From a virus (lineage: Duplodnaviria > Caudoviricetes): a DNA stretch of 64,000 bases. Below the pieces are notes generated by a model. It was given only the letters and a program-made list of their open reading frames with translations, did no database searches and was not told the DNA's origin. The DNA lies in IMG/VR virus record IMGVR_UViG_3300025016_000004. The stretch is one strand, 5' to 3'. Both the position numbers and the translations under genes were made by a program. Below are positions 26,023 through 41,828 of the stretch, piece by piece (position 1 is the stretch's first letter; each line of letters begins with the position of its first letter).

Positions 26023-27028
26023 TTCTTTGATTCTCATAATATTTTATAGTTTCAACCATACCTTCCTCAAAGTTTTTTTCAGGTTTCCAATTAAGGTTTG
26101 TTTGTAGTTTATTTGAATTGATTGCATATCTTAAATCATGACCCTTTCTATCTGTAACAAACTCTATTGGCATAGGGATATTGAAATTGTGGGGACCCTT
26201 CAAAAATATTTGATACTGTGCACTTATTTTTCTGATTAATTCAATATTAGTCATTTCATTATCACCACCAACATTATATGTTTGGCCAGTTTTACCATTA
26301 TGAAATATTTCGTCAATGGCTGTTACATGGTCACCAACCCATAACCAATCTCTTACGTTTTCACCTTTACCATAAACTGGTATCTTCTCACCATCCATTA
26401 ATTTATTGATAACAACTGGTATCAATTTTTCTTTATGTTGGTGTGGACCATAATTGTTTGAGCAGTTAGATATTGTTACATTCATGTTATACGTTCTACC
26501 ATAAGCTCTCACAAAGTGGTCAGAAGCCGCTTTAGAAGCCGAATAAGGTGAACTGGGGTCATAAGGCGTTGATTCACTGAAAGGGGCTTCATCAAGCTCT
26601 AAATCACCGTAAACTTCATCAGTTGAAACATGATGGAATCTATTATCTGAACCTTCACCCCAAAATTCTTTTGCAACATTTAATAAATTAACCGTTCCCA
26701 TAACGTTGGTATCAACAAATATGTTAGGGGTTAATATTGAATTATCTACGTGAGATTCTGCGGCCAAATGGATTATATCGGTAATATCATGTAATTTGAA
26801 TAAATGAGTTACTAATTCAGTATCCCTAATATCACCTTTACAAAAAAATATATTTTCTTTCCACCCAACTCTATTACCTTCAACATGCATTATGTTGTGA
26901 ATATTAGAAGCATAAGTTAGTAAATCTAAAACTACAAATTTATAGTTTGGGTATTTATCTGTGAAGAAGTTAACAACGTGGGAACCTATAAACCCAGCTC
27001 CACCTGTTATTAATATTGTTTTTTTCAT
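26009..27028 (-). CDS. rmlB: dTDP-glucose 4,6-dehydratase
   Basis: ITGGAGFIGS, HLAAESHVD, HVSTDEVYG, PYSASKAASD, CSNNYGP, DRKGHDLRY. Confidence 0.93.
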   Translation of the reverse strand: MKKTILITGGAGFIGSHVVNFFTDKYPNYKFVVLDLLTYASNIHNIMHVEGNRVGWKENIFFCKGDIRDTELVTHLFKLHDITDIIHLAAESHVDNSILTPNIFVDTNVMGTVNLLNVAKEFWGEGSDNRFHHVSTDEVYGDLELDEAPFSESTPYDPSSPYSASKAASDHFVRAYGRTYNMNVTISNCSNNYGPHQHKEKLIPVVINKLMDGEKIPVYGKGENVRDWLWVGDHVTAIDEIFHNGKTGQTYNVGGDNEMTNIELIRKISAQYQIFLKGPHNFNIPMPIEFVTDRKGHDLRYAINSNKLQTNLNWKPEKNFEEGMVETIKYYENQRNVTE

Positions 27029-27197
27029 TATTTAAATGGGTTATATTTTTCTTTCAAATTTTCAATAAAGGTCATCTTAGATTCAAAAAAACCTACTTTC
27101 CATGAAATATAAATCGTTATTAATGCTATTATTCCGAAGATGATATATTTTAAATTCTTTTTATTCATATTTCAGTAAATTATTTACAATTATACAC

Positions 27198-27229
27198 AAA
27201 AAAAGGGGAAAAACAAAATTTCCCCTTTT
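27198..27229 (-). terminator. Rho-independent terminator
   Basis: AAAAGGGGAAA / TTTCCCCTTTT inverted repeat with a U tract on the minus strand. Confidence 0.7.
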
Positions 27230-27263
27230 AATTTATATCGTAATTAACTATTATTATTTAATT

Positions 27264-28178
27264 TTATAATTTTCTACCACATTTTGAGCAGAAATTATCT
27301 TTAGCTTTCGCTTTTGCACCACAATTGGTACAGTAAGATTTGTGTAAATCTTGTGTTTCCACATTTTTTTGTGAAATCGGTAATAGTTTATAAGAAACTC
27401 TATGAAATGCATATGTTTCAAATTCAATGTTTACCGTTTGGAATTTTTGATTTGACTGAGCACCTTGCTCCACTCTACCTGTTTCAATCTTTTTGGCAGA
27501 CCTTAATACACTTTTAAGCTTTTTTTCTGAAGGTTGACCTAAAGATGTTGATTTAAAAGCGTCTGGTATTTGAGGTTGTGGTGCGAAATCGTTAGATAAA
27601 CTACCTTGTGACATCATATCTAATGTCGCTGTACTTGAATATAGGGCATTTGTACTAACAGTAGTGCTAGTATTACCAAATGCTACACCATTTGTTGTTG
27701 TAGTATGAGCATACCCGCCACTTGAAGTACCATCAGAATAGGTCCATGTTGGGCCTGAGAATGGAGTCCAAGTAGTACTATTACCAGAATTTATAAAAAT
27801 AGGGTTTAATTTTGTGGTTTGTTCTTTATAGAACAAAACTTCAACATCACCATTATCTCTAATAGCTTGTTTTACTTCATCACCACCTGATACTTCATAG
27901 GTATCAAATTTAAATTTCTTATCTATATCAAAATACCTATCAAGAAATACACGCTCACCAGGTCTCAACACCAATCCACTTTGTGAAATTAGTTTGTTGT
28001 TCAACTTGATTTTGGCTAAAACCTTATCGGTTGTTGGATTGAATAATTCAATTTGGAATTGACTTGATTTATGTAAATAATACACAGGTATTTCATTTTT
28101 TTTATCATATTGTTTAATTCTACTTTTATTTATTGCTAAATAAGCTGTAGGTTCATTATTTTTCATTATATTTTTCAT
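27264..28178 (-). CDS. Hypothetical protein with C-terminal zinc ribbon; its N-terminal 37 aa are a replacement segment carried behind the HE
   Basis: YCTNCG...FCSKCG at the C-terminus; N-terminus paralogous to the stub at 29027-29194; ATGA overlap with the HE stop. Confidence 0.75.
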   Translation of the reverse strand: MKNIMKNNEPTAYLAINKSRIKQYDKKNEIPVYYLHKSSQFQIELFNPTTDKVLAKIKLNNKLISQSGLVLRPGERVFLDRYFDIDKKFKFDTYEVSGGDEVKQAIRDNGDVEVLFYKEQTTKLNPIFINSGNSTTWTPFSGPTWTYSDGTSSGGYAHTTTTNGVAFGNTSTTVSTNALYSSTATLDMMSQGSLSNDFAPQPQIPDAFKSTSLGQPSEKKLKSVLRSAKKIETGRVEQGAQSNQKFQTVNIEFETYAFHRVSYKLLPISQKNVETQDLHKSYCTNCGAKAKAKDNFCSKCGRKL

Positions 28179-29005
28179 TTTTTTAAATTTTTATATTTCC
28201 AAATAAACCCATAAGATGTTCTTGCTTTATTATTACAACACATCCAAATATTACCTACAGATAAATTTAACGCTTTCGAAGCTATTCCAGCTGAATCCCA
28301 TTCAGTTATTAAATTCATTTCTAAATCATATTGTAATACAGGTTTAGATTTTTTATTATTTTTACCACTATTTGCGGAACCAATTTTTTGTTTATGCTCG
28401 TTTGTTAGAGTTTTACCTAACATTGGTCCTAACCCAAAATGTGGATTTTTATTACCTCTTTTAGCTTCAGACATTTTTTGTTTTGATTCTTCTGAATGTT
28501 TTTTATTGAAAAAGGGGTTAGTTTTATCTTTACTAATTTCTAAATTAGAAGATTCATTAATAAAATATTGATTTTCGTCTTTATTTAATAAAGTTTTTGT
28601 TAATATTATGTGATGACCTTTTAAGTTAGATTTTAATTTAGCTTCAGACATTTTTTGTTTTGATTCTTCTGAAAATTTAAAACCAAGAGTAGACCCCGCA
28701 ATCCCACTAATATTATAACCAATGTTTTTGTCACAAACATTTAAATTATCAATAAATGTTTGTTCTTCCATTAATAATAAATTTTTTTCTGGTTTAACTT
28801 CTAAAATAGGTTTGAATTCAAAAGAAGTTTCACCATATTTATTCCAAGCATTTTGTAAATGTGAGTTGGGATGCTTATTTTTACGCAATAATTTTTTATG
28901 GTCATTAAATCTTATTTTAAAATTTTTTGTTGACCCAATATATAATTTATGGTTATTTAAATTAATTATTTTATAAACACCTGATTTGTATTCTATTTTT
29001 TTCAT
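28175..29005 (-). CDS. Free-standing GIY-YIG homing endonuclease with NUMOD3 repeats and C-terminal HTH
   Basis: SGVYKIINLNNHKLYIGST...RFNDH; HSEESKQKMSEAK repeats; KPVLQYDL...YGFIWKY. Confidence 0.9.
   Translation of the reverse strand: MKKIEYKSGVYKIINLNNHKLYIGSTKNFKIRFNDHKKLLRKNKHPNSHLQNAWNKYGETSFEFKPILEVKPEKNLLLMEEQTFIDNLNVCDKNIGYNISGIAGSTLGFKFSEESKQKMSEAKLKSNLKGHHIILTKTLLNKDENQYFINESSNLEISKDKTNPFFNKKHSEESKQKMSEAKRGNKNPHFGLGPMLGKTLTNEHKQKIGSANSGKNNKKSKPVLQYDLEMNLITEWDSAGIASKALNLSVGNIWMCCNNKARTSYGFIWKYKNLKK
28460..28673. repeat. 37-nt perfect direct repeat (two copies, 28460-28496 and 28637-28673)
   Basis: tttagcttcagacattttttgttttgattcttctgaa twice; encodes duplicated SEESKQKMSEAK (NUMOD3). 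Confidence 0.85.
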
Positions 29006-29026
29006 AATATTATTTTTATATAAATA

Positions 29027-29194
29027 TTAAATTAAATAGAAGTATTCAACCCTAATGGGGTTTAAAATTAATAAAATTTTTTGAAGATAGTAAGTCGGAA
29101 TATTTGACTTATTGTTATACATTTTTACTCTACCTTTGTTGATAGCAAGAGTCGCTGTTGGGTTAGGATTACCCACCTTTACATTTGTTTTCAT
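29027..29194 (-). pseudogene. Displaced original 5' end (stub) of the zinc-ribbon gene
   Basis: MKTNVKVGNPNPTATLAINKGRVKMYNNKSNIPTYYLQK then unrelated ILLILNPIRVEYFYLI-stop; 18/28 identical to PTAYLAINKSRIKQYDKKNEIPVYYLHK. Confidence 0.85.
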
Positions 29195-29217
29195 AATTAC
29201 TTTTAATTTTTAATTAT

Positions 29218-29277
29218 GTACCAATCTTTTTGTTACCGAAATAACTCCAAAGCCGTTTATCGACTCAAGACCAATAC
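29218..29277 (-). ncRNA. Candidate structured cis-regulatory RNA (three-way junction) in a 5' leader
   Basis: P1 GUAUUGGUCUU/AAGAUUGGUAC, P2 GAGUCG-AUAAA-CGGCUU, P3 GUUAU-UUCG-GUAAC; folded by hand only. Confidence 0.4.
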
Positions 29278-29395
29278 GTATTGTTAATCACGTTATATAA
29301 GTAAATATATGAAATCTAAAAAAAACGTCAAGTTTTTTTAAAAAAATAATCTATTTATTATATGTCTCTTGGCTTAGAAATAAGGTTTTTAAAGC

Positions 29396-29560
29396 TTAAT
29401 AAGTTTTGGTAAAATTATCACACCCAACGTGATTTCCATTAATAAAGAAAAATTTACAACGTATTTTTTTTACGTTATTATCCGCTTTATTGAAAGTATT
29501 ACAATATTGCTTAATGGGGCAATCTTTGTTAGTACATTTTATATTATCCTTTTCTTTCAT
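29396..29560 (-). CDS. 54-aa Cys-rich protein; not in the ORF track
   Basis: MKEKDNIKCTNKDCPIKQYCNTFNKADNNVKKIRCKFFFINGNHVGCDNFTKTY. Confidence 0.45.
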   Translation of the reverse strand: MKEKDNIKCTNKDCPIKQYCNTFNKADNNVKKIRCKFFFINGNHVGCDNFTKTY

Positions 29561-30965
29561 CTACTTGGCTAGTAATGTCAAAACTAATTATATTTTTAGT
29601 TGTGGTCACTTCGTAGCTTGATGTTGCTTTAACATCTAAGTAGTATCTATTTGGAACAAGACTTGCAGTATCCAATAGGAAATAATTATAATTGAAGGCT
29701 AATTCAACTGGTGTGTAATCAATTACAGTATATTCAGCTTTACCTTCCTTAACATATAATCTATATTCTAAAGAATCTAAAACCTCTTGTTGATTAACAG
29801 TATACGGAATTCTAGCCATAACCCTAACCTTTCTAATATCACCTCTATTAATTTTTTCACCATCTTTTATTCCTGATACATTAAATGTGTAATTTTTAGG
29901 TATTGACGAATCTGACCCTATTTTATAGTATTCGTCAGCTGATTTCAATTCAAATTCTAATTCAGCGTTTGGTCTGGTAACGCCATTGATGGTAATTCCA
30001 CTCCAAATATCTTCGTATAATACACATCCTACTGGTGTAGTTGGTACCAATAATTGAATTGAGTATACACCTTTGGTTTCATGAGTAATATCAGCACCCG
30101 TAAATGCAGAAACTACATCACCTAAATTATCTAATATTGTAACACCCATACCTGACATAGAATCAACATTGGTTGGGACGCCACCGACATTAACATATAG
30201 GTATAATTTATTAAGCTTATCTAAATAAAAATTACCTCTGTTATCAAGAATGGTATTATTATATCTAGATTCTACATAAGGTTCGTAAAAAGTTTGTGTA
30301 TGTCTGGTAAAGAAACCAACATATTTTAAATTGTCTTCAATAGCGTTTTCAAGTGCATCATCAAATGCTAAACCTAAACCATAATTTGTATCACCAGTTA
30401 AATATCCATTTACGATATCTGTAATGTCCATCTCAAGATTTTCATTACCATCTGCGAAGTGTTGTGTTACCAATGTAACTCCTGATGTTGCGCCAGTATA
30501 CACACCGCTACCACTTGGCCAGTTGGTACCAGTTTGAGCGTCAATCCAATTGGATGGTGCATCACTTAAAACAGTTGCATTAGAAGATGTGAAGTATTTT
30601 TGACCAGCAAAATCATAACCTATACCTTCGTCCCATTCTTGGTCAATAGCAAATAAATTTAAGTTGAAAGAACTTGTTCTATCTTTACCATCACCAGTCT
30701 CTTTACCCAATAATGAAGTATCGAAAGTGCTGGTATTGGTCATTCTAAGTGTATGGGTTAAACCAGTTAATTCTGGGTACATACCAGTATTATAAAATTC
30801 TTTTAATCTAGTAATATCAAAATGGAAGATATACCTAGTATATAGTGGGTTTTCCGTTAACCAAACCCCACCGTAAAATAGTTCGGCCACAGGGTTTTTA
30901 CCAGTGTTAACGTTTTGATTGTACACCAGTGTATTATTTTTATCAAAGTAACTTCTTACTACCAT
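29544..30965 (-). CDS. Probable virion structural protein (DNRLRE-like beta domain)
   Basis: YTRYIFHFDITRLK, FAIDQEWDEGIGYD; Thr/Gly-rich; adjacent to the gp5-like gene; ATATTTAT upstream. Confidence 0.55.
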   Translation of the reverse strand: MVVRSYFDKNNTLVYNQNVNTGKNPVAELFYGGVWLTENPLYTRYIFHFDITRLKEFYNTGMYPELTGLTHTLRMTNTSTFDTSLLGKETGDGKDRTSSFNLNLFAIDQEWDEGIGYDFAGQKYFTSSNATVLSDAPSNWIDAQTGTNWPSGSGVYTGATSGVTLVTQHFADGNENLEMDITDIVNGYLTGDTNYGLGLAFDDALENAIEDNLKYVGFFTRHTQTFYEPYVESRYNNTILDNRGNFYLDKLNKLYLYVNVGGVPTNVDSMSGMGVTILDNLGDVVSAFTGADITHETKGVYSIQLLVPTTPVGCVLYEDIWSGITINGVTRPNAELEFELKSADEYYKIGSDSSIPKNYTFNVSGIKDGEKINRGDIRKVRVMARIPYTVNQQEVLDSLEYRLYVKEGKAEYTVIDYTPVELAFNYNYFLLDTASLVPNRYYLDVKATSSYEVTTTKNIISFDITSQVDERKG

Positions 30966-39882: not shown

Positions 39883-40875
39883 CTATATTTTAGCTTCTTT
39901 ATTTTCGTAGCGTTTTTCTAATTCAGCTAACTTGTACTTTTCGAATATGTTATCTCCATTTACTGTAACTTCAGCAATGAATTTAATTACATAGTGTCCG
40001 TTAAATTCAACGATTTTATCGAATTTTTTTACCTCATATTCATATTCTAAACCATCAATTGCACCTATGGTTTTATCAGTAATGAAACCAATCTTAGTAA
40101 TATCAAGTATATTTGAAGCTCTAGGGTTTTTTATAGCTTTTTTAATTTCACCTATTAAAAATTTGGTTTTCTTATCATATTCATCTTGGTAAGAAGATAC
40201 GTAAAATTCCAATAATTTTTCAGTTTCGTTGATATTTCTAACTAACAATTTTTTGGCATAATATTCAATTTCAAATTTCGGTCTAATATCCCTGTCCACA
40301 TATAGAGCCTTTTTTGATTGCATTGTGGACACCATATCATCAAAAGAAATCTCAGCCAACGTATTACCACTCCAAACATCCGCACCAACTAAATCAAACA
40401 TTATTTTACCATCAATAGGTGTATTATCACCTTTTGGGTTAAGTTTTAATTTATCGTTGCTGAAGGCTTCATAAGCTGATTTGGTGATGTCTTCATTCAT
40501 GACAACTAGCTCAACTGGATACGGGTCGAAGTTATCACGGGTTACTTTATCTAATTTATATTTCTCAATATTATAGGTTTCAACTATTGGTAATCCATCA
40601 GCATCATAACCAACTATTTTAGCTGTTTTATTTTTAGATTCACTTAAAACTTTATACAACCGCCATCTCAACTCTTTAACTTGTTGATTCGTTATCTGAT
40701 TTTTTAACCCATGTAATAATGTACCTTGGTCCTTTTCTATTATTAATCCAACACCTGACAAGTCGGAAGTTTTTGATTGAGATAATATCTTTTTATCAAA
40801 AACTGATAAACCAATCAAAAGCCCCATAATTTTATTTTTTATCCACGTCATATTTGTATTGCCATTTAAATCCAC
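39883..40875 (-). CDS. Hypothetical protein; N-terminus (to VKE) is a replacement segment behind the HE; likely start ATG 40851
   Basis: N-terminus aligns without gaps to the stub at 41643-41828; start overlaps the HE 3' end. Confidence 0.7.
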   Translation of the reverse strand: MDLNGNTNMTWIKNKIMGLLIGLSVFDKKILSQSKTSDLSGVGLIIEKDQGTLLHGLKNQITNQQVKELRWRLYKVLSESKNKTAKIVGYDADGLPIVETYNIEKYKLDKVTRDNFDPYPVELVVMNEDITKSAYEAFSNDKLKLNPKGDNTPIDGKIMFDLVGADVWSGNTLAEISFDDMVSTMQSKKALYVDRDIRPKFEIEYYAKKLLVRNINETEKLLEFYVSSYQDEYDKKTKFLIGEIKKAIKNPRASNILDITKIGFITDKTIGAIDGLEYEYEVKKFDKIVEFNGHYVIKFIAEVTVNGDNIFEKYKLAELEKRYENKEAKI

Positions 40876-41596
40876 CCGTTTTATTTCTTTTACCTAAACA
40901 AACCGCACTTATTTTACCTCTAATTATATTTAATTCTTTTTCAGCTTCCCCAGCGTGTGACCATAATTTAATTATTTCACCATCTAACCCAATTTGGTAG
41001 ACGTGTTTTCTTTTATTAGAAACTTCACCCTTTTTACTTTCACTTATTTTAGCCCTAACTACTTCACTAACTATTCTACCTGTTAATTTTTTTGATAGTT
41101 TTATTTTAGTTTCTTCTGATGTAACTCTCCCCATATTAGCTTTACTAATTTTTAATTTAGTTTCTTTGGACAATTTACTACCAGTTCTTAATTTTTTCAT
41201 TCTAATAGAAATCTCTTTTGAATATCTTTTAGCTAAATTCGACATTTTTTTCTTGGTTTCATCACTATGCTTATGCCCTATATTACCATGACCACCCTCA
41301 TTACAATTTAAACCAAACTTAAAACAATCATAATGTTTAATCCAATACTTTTCACGATTATTTAAATATTCTTTATTTACCCCACATAAACATTCTTCGA
41401 TTATTTCATAAGTATCAACAGGGTTCCATTTATGTTTTTCGCAACTAGCCCATAATTTTATTTGCGATTTAAAACCCCCCTTTTTATAATTATATTTTCT
41501 TTTTTTATTATTTATTGTTTGACCTATATAAATTTTACCGTTTGGGCTAGTTAATTTATAAATATAACCCTTTACATTTCTTAAATCTTTTTTCAT
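40832..41596 (-). CDS. Free-standing GIY-YIG homing endonuclease with NUMOD repeats
   Basis: GYIYKLTSPNGKIYIGQT; HSDETKKKMS-type repeats; KTGGFKWQY; ATG at 41596. Confidence 0.9.
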   Translation of the reverse strand: MKKDLRNVKGYIYKLTSPNGKIYIGQTINNKKRKYNYKKGGFKSQIKLWASCEKHKWNPVDTYEIIEECLCGVNKEYLNNREKYWIKHYDCFKFGLNCNEGGHGNIGHKHSDETKKKMSNLAKRYSKEISIRMKKLRTGSKLSKETKLKISKANMGRVTSEETKIKLSKKLTGRIVSEVVRAKISESKKGEVSNKRKHVYQIGLDGEIIKLWSHAGEAEKELNIIRGKISAVCLGKRNKTGGFKWQYKYDVDKK

Positions 41597-41642
41597 AAAC
41601 ACTATTTATTAATAAATATATAATTTTTAATAAAAGTGAAAA

Positions 41643-41828
41643 TTATTCTTTAACAGGCATCGTTATCTCACCTCGTAATAGAGCATCAGCTAACATGCCT
41701 TGTTGATATGTTTGTTCCATGGAACCAATATCACCCAAAGCGTCAGACTTTTGAGTTAGCATGCTCTTTTCAACCCTAGATAATGATAGGGATAGTAATG
41801 CGAATTTTCGTTTTAAGTAGTTAAGTAT
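41643..41828 (-). pseudogene. Displaced original 5' end (stub) of the 39883-40875 gene
   Basis: ILNYLKRKFALLSLSLSRVEKSMLTQKSDALGDIGSMEQTYQQGMLADALLRGEITMPVKE-stop; ends exactly at VKE, where the downstream gene reads VKELRWR. Confidence 0.75.

What the first reader, a model, noticed from the sequence alone, without database searches (positions are those of the whole stretch)
28068..29194. Zinc-ribbon gene split by a GIY-YIG endonuclease with a duplicated N-terminus
Stub PTATLAINKGRVKMYNNKSNIPTYYLQK and the annotated gene's PTAYLAINKSRIKQYDKKNEIPVYYLHK share 18/28 residues without gaps. Similarity stops at YYL(Q/H)K, which marks the insertion point. The replacement start overlaps the HE stop (ATGA at 28175-28178). 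The stub keeps the native promoter-like sequence (TTG-N19-TATATTTA, 29331-29302) and leader, so the repaired gene may now be expressed behind the HE.
Basis: seen in the sequence. Interest (0 to 1): 0.7.

Follow-up and report, generated by a model that had tools for sequence, protein, structure and literature searches.

The report
Endonuclease cassette replacing a gene start
A selfish DNA-cutting-enzyme gene has inserted 39 codons into a conserved gene of a huge uncultured phage and brought a foreign copy of the gene's first 40 codons, so the gene stays whole without splicing while its original start, promoter and structured RNA leader are left behind as a dead stub.

Summary

**Layout, minus strand**
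- Promoter-like site and conserved leader.
- 39-codon native stub (29194-29078).
- 72-nt AT-rich flank.
- Intact I-TevI-like GIY-YIG/NUMOD endonuclease (29005-28175).
- Replacement codons 1-40 (N', 28178-28059), whose ATG overlaps the endonuclease stop.
- Native gene body.

**Evidence**
- An endonuclease-free allele (P0002) starts with the stub's 39 residues exactly. It matches the body 79/80 just after the junction, but N' only 22/40.
- N' is AT-richer than the native parts. It shares rare residues with a distant subclade (P0064/P0085).
- N' carries unique changes at the junction, including Q for an otherwise invariant E.
- None of 67 related loci has the endonuclease, and gene order is kept in the relatives inspected.

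Foreign DNA runs three codons past YYL(Q/H)K. The native site reads CTT CAA AAA GGN CAA GAA TTC, not the proposed chimera.

**Extra finding**
The leader stranded in front of the stub is a three-way-junction RNA with strong covariation.

**Not shown**
Cleavage, current mobility and expression by translational coupling are inferred.

**Context**
The scan has noted this design in about 100 other genomes and twice more in this one. The closest published parallel is the fungal mitochondrial endonuclease ORFs that replace gene ends.

The parts
29304..29331 (-). Native promoter-like site TTGACG-N16-TATATT of the invaded gene
   Evidence: 10/12 match. The same position holds TTTACA/TTTACT plus TATATTTAT in the endonuclease-free relatives L037, L087 and L101. 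The consensus scan as a whole is not above shuffled expectation, so the support is conservation, not the scan.
29218..29277 (-). Conserved three-way-junction RNA in the native 5' leader, now in front of the dead stub
   Evidence: The leader is detectable by blastn directly upstream of the gene in 36 family loci. On 27 distinct sequences 98% of cells pair, 10 of 21 pairs show changes on both sides, and slid controls pair at 38-49%. No Rfam match.
29078..29194 (-). Native codons 1-39 (stub), ending ...TAC TAT CTT CAA AAA
   Evidence: 39/39 identical to the N-terminus of endonuclease-free P0002. 73-74/84 nt identical to L101 and L037 over codons 12-39. GC 32.5%, like the native body.
29006..29077 (-). 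Left flank of the inserted cassette (72 nt, 14% GC). It holds the stub's 16 out-of-context codons, its TAA (29029-29027) and 21 nt before the endonuclease ATG
   Evidence: Similarity to endonuclease-free alleles ends after AAA at 29078. Composition.
28175..29005 (-). GIY-YIG homing endonuclease gene, 276 aa, I-TevI-like
   Evidence: Pfam GIY-YIG 7e-10, NUMOD3 5e-17 (4 stretches), NUMOD1 6e-5. PHROG homing endonuclease 1.6e-35. Aligns to the I-TevI catalytic domain 1MK0/1LN0 at E 1e-12, with residues aligned to I-TevI Y6, Y17, R27, H31, H40, E75 and N90 all conserved. The exact protein is on 52 contigs.
28059..28178 (-). Foreign replacement codons 1-40 (N'), with ATG overlapping the endonuclease TGA
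   Evidence: 22/40 identical to P0002, against 79/80 for the next 80 residues (Fisher p 1.6e-9). GC 19% and GC3 7.5%, against 34% and 20% in the body. Nearest N-termini are P0064/P0085. Residues Y13, H36 and Q40 are found in 0 of 119 homologues.
27264..28058 (-). Native body of the invaded gene (codons 41-304): beta-sandwich domain, disordered middle, C-terminal zinc ribbon
   Evidence: Pfam Zn_Ribbon_1 7.5e-7. AlphaFold model. 1535 homologues. Order p473 - gene - dTDP-glucose 4,6-dehydratase seen in L101, L037 and L038.

Best explanation
A 1019-bp cassette (28059-29077) is inserted in the 5' part of a conserved huge-phage gene. It consists of a short AT-rich flank, a free-standing I-TevI-like GIY-YIG homing endonuclease gene and a foreign copy of the target gene's first 40 codons.

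Shown:
- The insertion lies after native codon 39.
- Nine native bases (GGN CAA GAA) are absent.
- The native start survives as a stub that still carries the native promoter-like site and structured leader.
- The working reading frame is a chimera of foreign codons 1-40 and native codons 41-304.
- Close relatives lack the insert.

Inferred history: in a donor phage of the P0064/P0085-like lineage the endonuclease sat directly upstream of its own cleavage-resistant allele. That is where most of the 36 relatives of this endonuclease fetched from IMG/VR sit relative to a same-strand gene. During a mixed infection it cut the sensitive allele in the conserved block around codons 36-42. Repair copied the endonuclease plus the donor's gene start. 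It joined by homology on the right (TTC CAA ATT GAA...) and illegitimately on the left.

Inferred function:
- The recognition site must straddle the junction, because both native halves are still present in the genome (stub and body) and only their junction is gone. The replacement copy is changed at 10-11 of the 24 bases of codons 33-40.
- The stub can now serve as the left homology arm, so the whole cassette can home into naive alleles.
- The chimeric gene is probably made from the native promoter on a stub-endonuclease-gene transcript, by termination-reinitiation at the ATGA overlap.
For: - Endonuclease-free allele P0002 equals stub + GQE + body: 39/39, then 79/80.
- P0122 and P0126 are further endonuclease-free close alleles.
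- No endonuclease in any of 67 family loci.
- Order p473 - gene - dehydratase is seen in the closest full loci (L101, L037, L038). The p473 homologue also lies upstream in L087, L097, L039 and L042.
- Native junction DNA was read from L101, L037 and L087.
- Composition step: cassette 14-24% GC against 33-34%.
- N' groups with P0064/P0085 (SH-aLRT 92). It shares Q23, V32, S38 and S39, each present in 2-4 of 119 homologues.
- Unique changes cluster at codons 36-40, including E40Q where E is 119/119.
- The junction lies in the most conserved DNA block of the family's 5' part.
- Catalytic residues are intact.
- The arrangement is seen on about 50 contigs from several sources.
- No intron family hit.
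- Published parallels: fungal mitochondrial endonuclease ORFs that carry replacement gene ends (PMC3630166) and intronless homing in T4 (PMC2988022).
Against: - Only one lineage carries the cassette: a single 90% cluster has the N' type and there is a single stub type. Movement is therefore inferred from one event.
- No donor with the endonuclease next to an N'-like allele was found. The contexts of P0064/P0085 could not be fetched.
- The AU test on 32 columns does not reject N' grouping with the native clade (p 0.22-0.26).
- None of the 36 IMG/VR relatives of the endonuclease (44% identity or less) shows an upstream duplicate.
- N' replaces an invariant Glu and a near-invariant Gly, so full function of the chimera is not assured.
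- No cleavage, transcript or protein data exist.
Confidence: 0.8

Rival explanations
1. One-off accident, now inert. The structure is the scar of a single illegitimate recombination. The endonuclease no longer homes (or never recognised this site), and the stub is neutral debris awaiting deletion.
For: Only one lineage carries it. Relatives of the endonuclease are ordinary free-standing genes without duplicates. No second genetic background with the same cassette is clearly shown.
Against: - The endonuclease ORF is full length with all catalytic residues, and is identical on 52 contigs.
- The stub has no change relative to P0002, so the event is recent.
- P0001 carries N' on a body that is partly P0002-like: residues 233-262 are 30/30 identical to P0002. 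This shows exchange between cassette-bearing and naive lineages.
Confidence: 0.12
2. In-place tandem duplication of the gene's 5' end, followed by divergence of one copy and insertion of an endonuclease between the copies.
For: The AU test cannot reject N' within the native clade on 32 columns. N' shares L14 and I16 with the native clade.
Against: - It needs 18 of 40 residues and 39% of bases changed in the working copy while the unused copy and the adjacent 80 codons changed by 0 and 1 residues (Fisher p 1.6e-9).
- N' matches the endonuclease in AT-richness.
- N' shares four rare residues with P0064/P0085.
Confidence: 0.04
3. A self-splicing element (group I intron or intein) that rejoins stub and body.
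For: GIY-YIG endonucleases of this type are often intron-encoded. The endonuclease ORF is in frame with the stub ORF (189 nt apart).
Against: - No intron family at E<=1 in 27000-30000.
- A TAA stop separates stub and endonuclease, and there are no Hint/intein domains.
- A complete replacement start with its own ATG makes splicing unnecessary.
- Nine native bases needed for a spliced product are missing.
Confidence: 0.02
4. Assembly chimera.
For: The window is of metagenomic origin.
Against: The stub is on 56 contigs, the endonuclease on 52 and the chimeric gene on 48 + 27. The endonuclease and gene sequences are held by JGI, ENA, Logan and MetaClust; the longest contig is 314,960 bases.
Confidence: 0.01

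Closest known systems
Mobile endonuclease ORFs of fungal mitochondria that create gene hybrids (Allomyces macrogynus atp6; Glomus atp6, atp9, cox2, nad3; Rhizopus atp9), as described in PMC3630166
   Same: An endonuclease ORF is inserted in a protein gene together with a foreign, diverged duplicate of the displaced gene end. The native end is kept next to it and matches the endonuclease-free close relative. The two copies are about 60% identical in DNA (63.5% there, 61% here). The gene works without splicing.
   Different: There the 3' end (C-terminus) is replaced and the endonuclease ORF is often fused in frame. Here the 5' end with the start codon is replaced, in a phage, and the native promoter and leader are stranded on the dead copy.
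Intronless homing by free-standing T4 endonucleases (SegF/gene 56, SegG/gene 32, MobE/nrdB), reviewed in PMC2988022
   Same: A free-standing GIY-YIG gene next to its target gene. It is inherited together with flanking donor sequence. Several such genes lack their own promoter and overlap neighbouring ORFs.
   Different: In T4 the endonuclease lies between genes, and co-conversion replaces the recipient sequence cleanly. Here the recipient's own start is retained as a stub, so the insert lies inside the gene.
T4 MobA / gene 60 cassette and other endonuclease insertions into genes (mobE in Aeh1 nrdA), PMC2988022 and bioRxiv 10.1101/2022.08.31.505936
   Same: A homing endonuclease is inserted inside a coding region of a phage gene, and the gene stays functional without splicing.
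   Different: Those insertions split the protein into two polypeptides (with a ribosomal bypass in gene 60). Here there is no split protein, no stop and no gap: N' and body form one open frame.
I-TevI (phage T4 td intron endonuclease; PDB 1MK0, 1LN0)
   Same: Catalytic domain alignable at E 1e-12 with all catalytic residues. Modular NUMOD DNA-binding tail.
   Different: Not intron-encoded. Its target and cleavage distance are unknown.

Membership tests
GIY-YIG homing endonucleases (I-TevI-like) | GIY-YIG catalytic domain with the conserved Tyr, Tyr, Arg, His, Glu and Asn residues | tested here: met
   Pfam PF01541 at 7e-10. The alignment to 1MK0/1LN0 shows GVY, YIG, R32, H36, H45, E81 and N98 aligned to I-TevI Y6, Y17, R27, H31, H40, E75 and N90.
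GIY-YIG homing endonucleases (I-TevI-like) | Modular C-terminal DNA-binding region (NUMOD repeats / helix-turn-helix) | tested here: met
   NUMOD3 5e-17 in 4 stretches; NUMOD1 6e-5 at residues 221-256.
GIY-YIG homing endonucleases (I-TevI-like) | Presence/absence polymorphism among close relatives at a fixed site | tested here: met
   P0002, P0122 and P0126 lack it and read through the site. 0 of 67 family loci hold it.
GIY-YIG homing endonucleases (I-TevI-like) | Site-specific cleavage of the endonuclease-free allele, and resistance of the carrier allele | not testable with these tools
   Only indirect support: the junction lies in the most conserved DNA block, and the replacement copy differs at 10-11 of the 24 bases of codons 33-40.
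Gene-end-replacing endonuclease cassettes (fungal mitochondrial type) | Endonuclease ORF plus a foreign duplicate of the displaced gene end, with the native end retained and matching the endonuclease-free relative | tested here: met
   Stub 39/39 to P0002; N' 22/40; N' nearest to P0064/P0085. However, it is the 5' end rather than the 3' end, and the host is a phage.
Gene-end-replacing endonuclease cassettes (fungal mitochondrial type) | The same cassette found in several hosts or genes (demonstrated mobility) | tested here: not met
   N' occurs in one 90% cluster only and there is one stub type. The nearest endonuclease in IMG/VR is 44% identical.
Group I intron with endonuclease ORF | Ribozyme core flanking the ORF | tested here: not met
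   No Rfam intron match at E<=1. A complete replacement start is present.
Intein | In-frame insertion with Hint splicing blocks | tested here: not met
   Stop codon between stub and endonuclease; only nuclease and NUMOD domains.
T4 gene 60-type bypass cassette | Stop-containing coding gap between replacement start and gene body | tested here: not met
   N' runs into the body as one open frame of 304 codons.

The most novel reading that the evidence does not exclude
Start-replacing homing cassettes may be a general, active way for free-standing endonucleases to live inside phage genes without introns or inteins. In this reading the stranded native stub is not debris. It is the left homology arm for homing, and together with the conserved three-way-junction leader it is the entry point of a translation relay (stub stop, 21 nt, endonuclease ATG; endonuclease TGA overlapping the gene's ATG). 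That relay would keep both the endonuclease and the chimeric gene under the invaded gene's native control.
Probability: 0.3. Interest if true: 0.7.

Novelty: new variant of a known kind. Interest (0 to 1): 0.5.

Why it matters
- It shows how a homing endonuclease can occupy a coding region with no intron, intein or split protein, by carrying a spare, cleavage-resistant gene start.
- This instance is unusually clean. The empty allele, the stub, the foreign start and a likely donor lineage are all identifiable, so the recognition site can be predicted and tested directly.
- Such cassettes create chimeric genes and orphan short ORFs that annotation pipelines misread.
- They move gene pieces between distant phages.
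- Here the cassette separates a gene from a conserved structured leader RNA. That gives a natural test of whether the leader acts on the transcript or on the start codon.

Tried and rejected
The DNA and neighbours of P0001, P0002, P0064 and P0085 could not be read, so nucleotide-level breakpoints rest on more distant endonuclease-free loci.
- No whole genome is held for the window.
- Megablast of the region against phage records found nothing.
- P0002 against viral contigs found no relative. The single metagenome scan gave three loci, none a close full-length endonuclease-free allele.
- A degenerate DNA pattern for PVYYLxKSS(E/Q)FQ found nothing in viral contigs.
- The duplicate search around 36 relatives of the endonuclease was negative apart from the positive control.
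- A window-wide scan for other start duplicates at E<=1e-3 found only this one. The second GIY-YIG locus gave only a weak match.
- The AU test for foreign origin was inconclusive on 32 columns.
- The structure model of the invaded protein was mediocre (pLDDT 61) and had no PDB match at E<=0.001. Its function stays unknown.
- Alternative genetic codes give little gain, so table 11 is kept.
- The promoter scan as a whole was not above chance.
- The group I intron, intein and bypass readings were rejected.

Full report
**What is there.** On the minus strand the region reads, 5' to 3':
- a promoter-like TTGACG-N16-TATATT (29331-29304);
- a leader of about 110 nt;
- a 55-codon ORF (29194-29027);
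- a 276-codon ORF (29005-28175);
- a 304-codon ORF (28178-27264), whose ATG overlaps the previous TGA as ATGA.

The 276-aa protein is a GIY-YIG homing endonuclease:
- Pfam gives GIY-YIG, four NUMOD3 stretches and NUMOD1.
- It matches PHROG homing-endonuclease families.
- Its catalytic domain aligns to I-TevI (1MK0, 1LN0) at E 1e-12, with every catalytic residue in place.

The 304-aa protein ends in a zinc ribbon. An AlphaFold model (pLDDT 61) shows an N-terminal beta-sandwich (residues about 10-120), a disordered middle and the ribbon. No solved structure matches at E<=0.001, so its function stays unknown.

**The duplication is real.** Stub residues 12-39 and gene residues 10-37 share 18/28 residues. 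Shuffled upstream DNA never gave more than 10, and tblastn gives E about 1e-10. The DNA copies are only 61% identical, and 11 of 18 conserved residues are spelled with different codons.

**Which copy is native.** The gene family is large: 1535 proteins at E<=0.001. It occurs in huge phages, including Lak megaphages at 30-37% identity.
- The closest endonuclease-free member, P0002, begins with exactly the stub's 39 residues and continues GQEFQIELF. It is 79/80 identical to the window over residues 41-120.
- P0002 is only 22/40 identical to the annotated start (Fisher p 1.6e-9).
- P0122 and P0126 are further such alleles.
- In L101, L037 and L038 the order is p473, then this gene with a stub-type start, then dTDP-glucose 4,6-dehydratase. 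L087, cut short by its contig end, shows the first two. None of 67 family loci contains the endonuclease.

The stub is therefore the native start, and the annotated start (N') came in with the endonuclease.

**Breakpoints.** Endonuclease-free DNA reads TAC TAT CTT CAA AAA GGN CAA GAA TTC CAA ATT GAA.
- The stub follows this up to AAA and then runs into 14%-GC sequence.
- N' reads TAT TAT TTA CAT AAA TCA AGT CAA and rejoins at TTC CAA ATT GAA.
- The insert is therefore 28059-29077 (1019 bp), and nine native bases are missing.
On the right side the foreign sequence continues for three more codons, so the proposed reconstructed junction is a chimera and not the natural site.

**Foreign origin of N'.**
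- The cassette is AT-richer than its surroundings: endonuclease 24% GC, N' 19% with GC3 7.5%, against 33-34% for stub and body.
- N' shares Q23, V32, S38 and S39 with P0064 and P0085. Each of these residues occurs in only 2-4 of 119 homologues. The bodies of P0064 and P0085 are only 56-59/80 identical to the window.
- In a tree of the 32 N-terminal columns N' groups with these two (SH-aLRT 92). The stub sits on P0002, and the body also sits on P0002.
- With so few columns the AU test cannot reject other placements (p 0.22-0.26).
- In-place duplication is nevertheless excluded in practice. It would need the working copy to change at 18 of 40 residues while the unused copy changed at none.

**Where the endonuclease must act (inference).**
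- Codons 31-49 are the most conserved DNA of the gene's 5' part (79-97% per codon over 44 distinct loci), and the junction lies in the middle of this block.
- Both native halves remain in the carrier genome. A site lying wholly in either half would be self-cut, so the site should straddle codons 39-42.
- N' carries a cluster of unique or rare residues exactly there: H36, S38, S39 and Q40, with E40 otherwise invariant. It differs at 10-11 of the 24 bases of codons 33-40. This is what a cleavage-resistant allele would look like.
- In the model the junction falls in the turn between strands 32-35 and 41-46.

**How it probably arose and moves (inference).** Most of the 36 IMG/VR relatives of this endonuclease sit directly upstream of a same-strand gene, and none has a duplicate. 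The simplest history has three steps:
1. A donor carried the endonuclease in front of its own resistant allele.
2. The endonuclease cut a sensitive allele during mixed infection.
3. Repair was homologous on the right and illegitimate on the left, which stranded the recipient's start.

From then on the stub gives a perfect left homology arm, so the cassette could home as a unit. The low identity between stub and N' would hinder loss by repeat recombination.

Mobility itself is not shown:
- One 90% cluster has N'.
- There is one stub type.
- The nearest endonuclease in IMG/VR is 44% identical.

Some exchange with naive lineages is visible. P0001 carries N' but equals P0002 30/30 at residues 233-262, where the window has 25/30.

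**Expression (inference).** The promoter-like site and leader are nearly invariant between the window and L101, L037 and L087, more so than the coding sequence. The leader is found upstream of the gene in 36 family loci. It folds into a three-way junction with strong covariation: 98% of cells paired, 10 of 21 pairs with double changes, slid controls 38-49%. It has no Rfam family.

In the window this RNA (29218-29277) sits in front of the dead stub, 1.02 kb from the working ATG, and no second copy exists. No convincing promoter or terminator lies inside the cassette. The stub's TAA is 21 nt before the endonuclease ATG, in the same frame, and the endonuclease TGA overlaps the gene's ATG. A single transcript with coupled translation is the most economical reading, but it is untested.

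**Comparison with what is known.**
- The design mirrors the mobile endonuclease ORFs of fungal mitochondria, which insert with a foreign C-terminal gene piece and leave the native piece beside it (PMC3630166). Here the gene start is replaced, in a phage.
- It shares the logic of T4 intronless homing (PMC2988022).
- It differs from the T4 mobA/gene 60 and Aeh1 mobE cases, which split the protein.
- My literature searches found no phage description of a start-replacing cassette. They cover only open-access texts.
- Earlier notes of this scan report the same design in about 100 other genomes and at two more places in this genome. I only partly checked one of those.

**Verdict.** This is a real, clean, well-supported endonuclease cassette that replaces a gene start. 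It is a variant of a known kind, of moderate interest, made more useful by the identifiable empty allele and by the stranded structured leader.

Noticed in passing
window 29218-29277 (-); also directly upstream of the gene in L101, L037, L087, L103 and about 30 further family loci: The 5' leader of this gene family is a conserved three-way-junction RNA. On 27 distinct sequences 98% of cells pair, 10 of 21 pairs show compensatory double changes, and slid controls pair at 38-49%. There is no Rfam family. Between the window and L101 it is more conserved than the protein it precedes.
   Followed up: partly
window 29194 to 29005 (-): The endonuclease ORF is in the same frame as the stub ORF. They are separated by one TAA (29029-29027) and seven sense codons. 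This may be chance (one in three), or it may relate to reinitiation.
   Followed up: no
window 28460-28496 and 28637-28673: A 37-nt exact direct repeat inside the endonuclease gene, encoding the repeated NUMOD3 motif (S/H)EESKQKMSEAK. It is a possible substrate for in-frame deletion or expansion of the DNA-binding region.
   Followed up: no
P0001, window protein and P0002, residues 233-262: Mosaic patch: P0001 (with the replacement start) is 30/30 identical to endonuclease-free P0002 here, whereas the window is 25/30. This indicates recombination within the gene between carrier and naive lineages.
   Followed up: partly
L050:3989-4885: A family member reads YYLKPSSEFQ (SS in place of the usual GQ at the junction) and has no endonuclease upstream. 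It could be a naturally resistant allele or a lineage that lost the endonuclease.
   Followed up: partly
window 40832-41602 (-) and 41646-41828 (-): A second, distantly related GIY-YIG/NUMOD endonuclease lies directly upstream of a 330-codon gene. The stretch upstream of it has a weak same-strand match to that gene's start (28% over 64 aa, E 0.12).
   Followed up: partly
phage records LR756501.1 and LR756503.1, 262874-264091: The homologue of the invaded gene matches in two pieces spread over 1218 nt, longer than in other records. This is a possible insertion in that gene.
   Followed up: no
window 29396-29560 (-): A 54-codon Cys-rich ORF overlaps the end of the p473 gene, in the spacer upstream of the promoter-like site. 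tblastn found no match to it in the nine family loci tabulated. It was not examined further.
   Followed up: no
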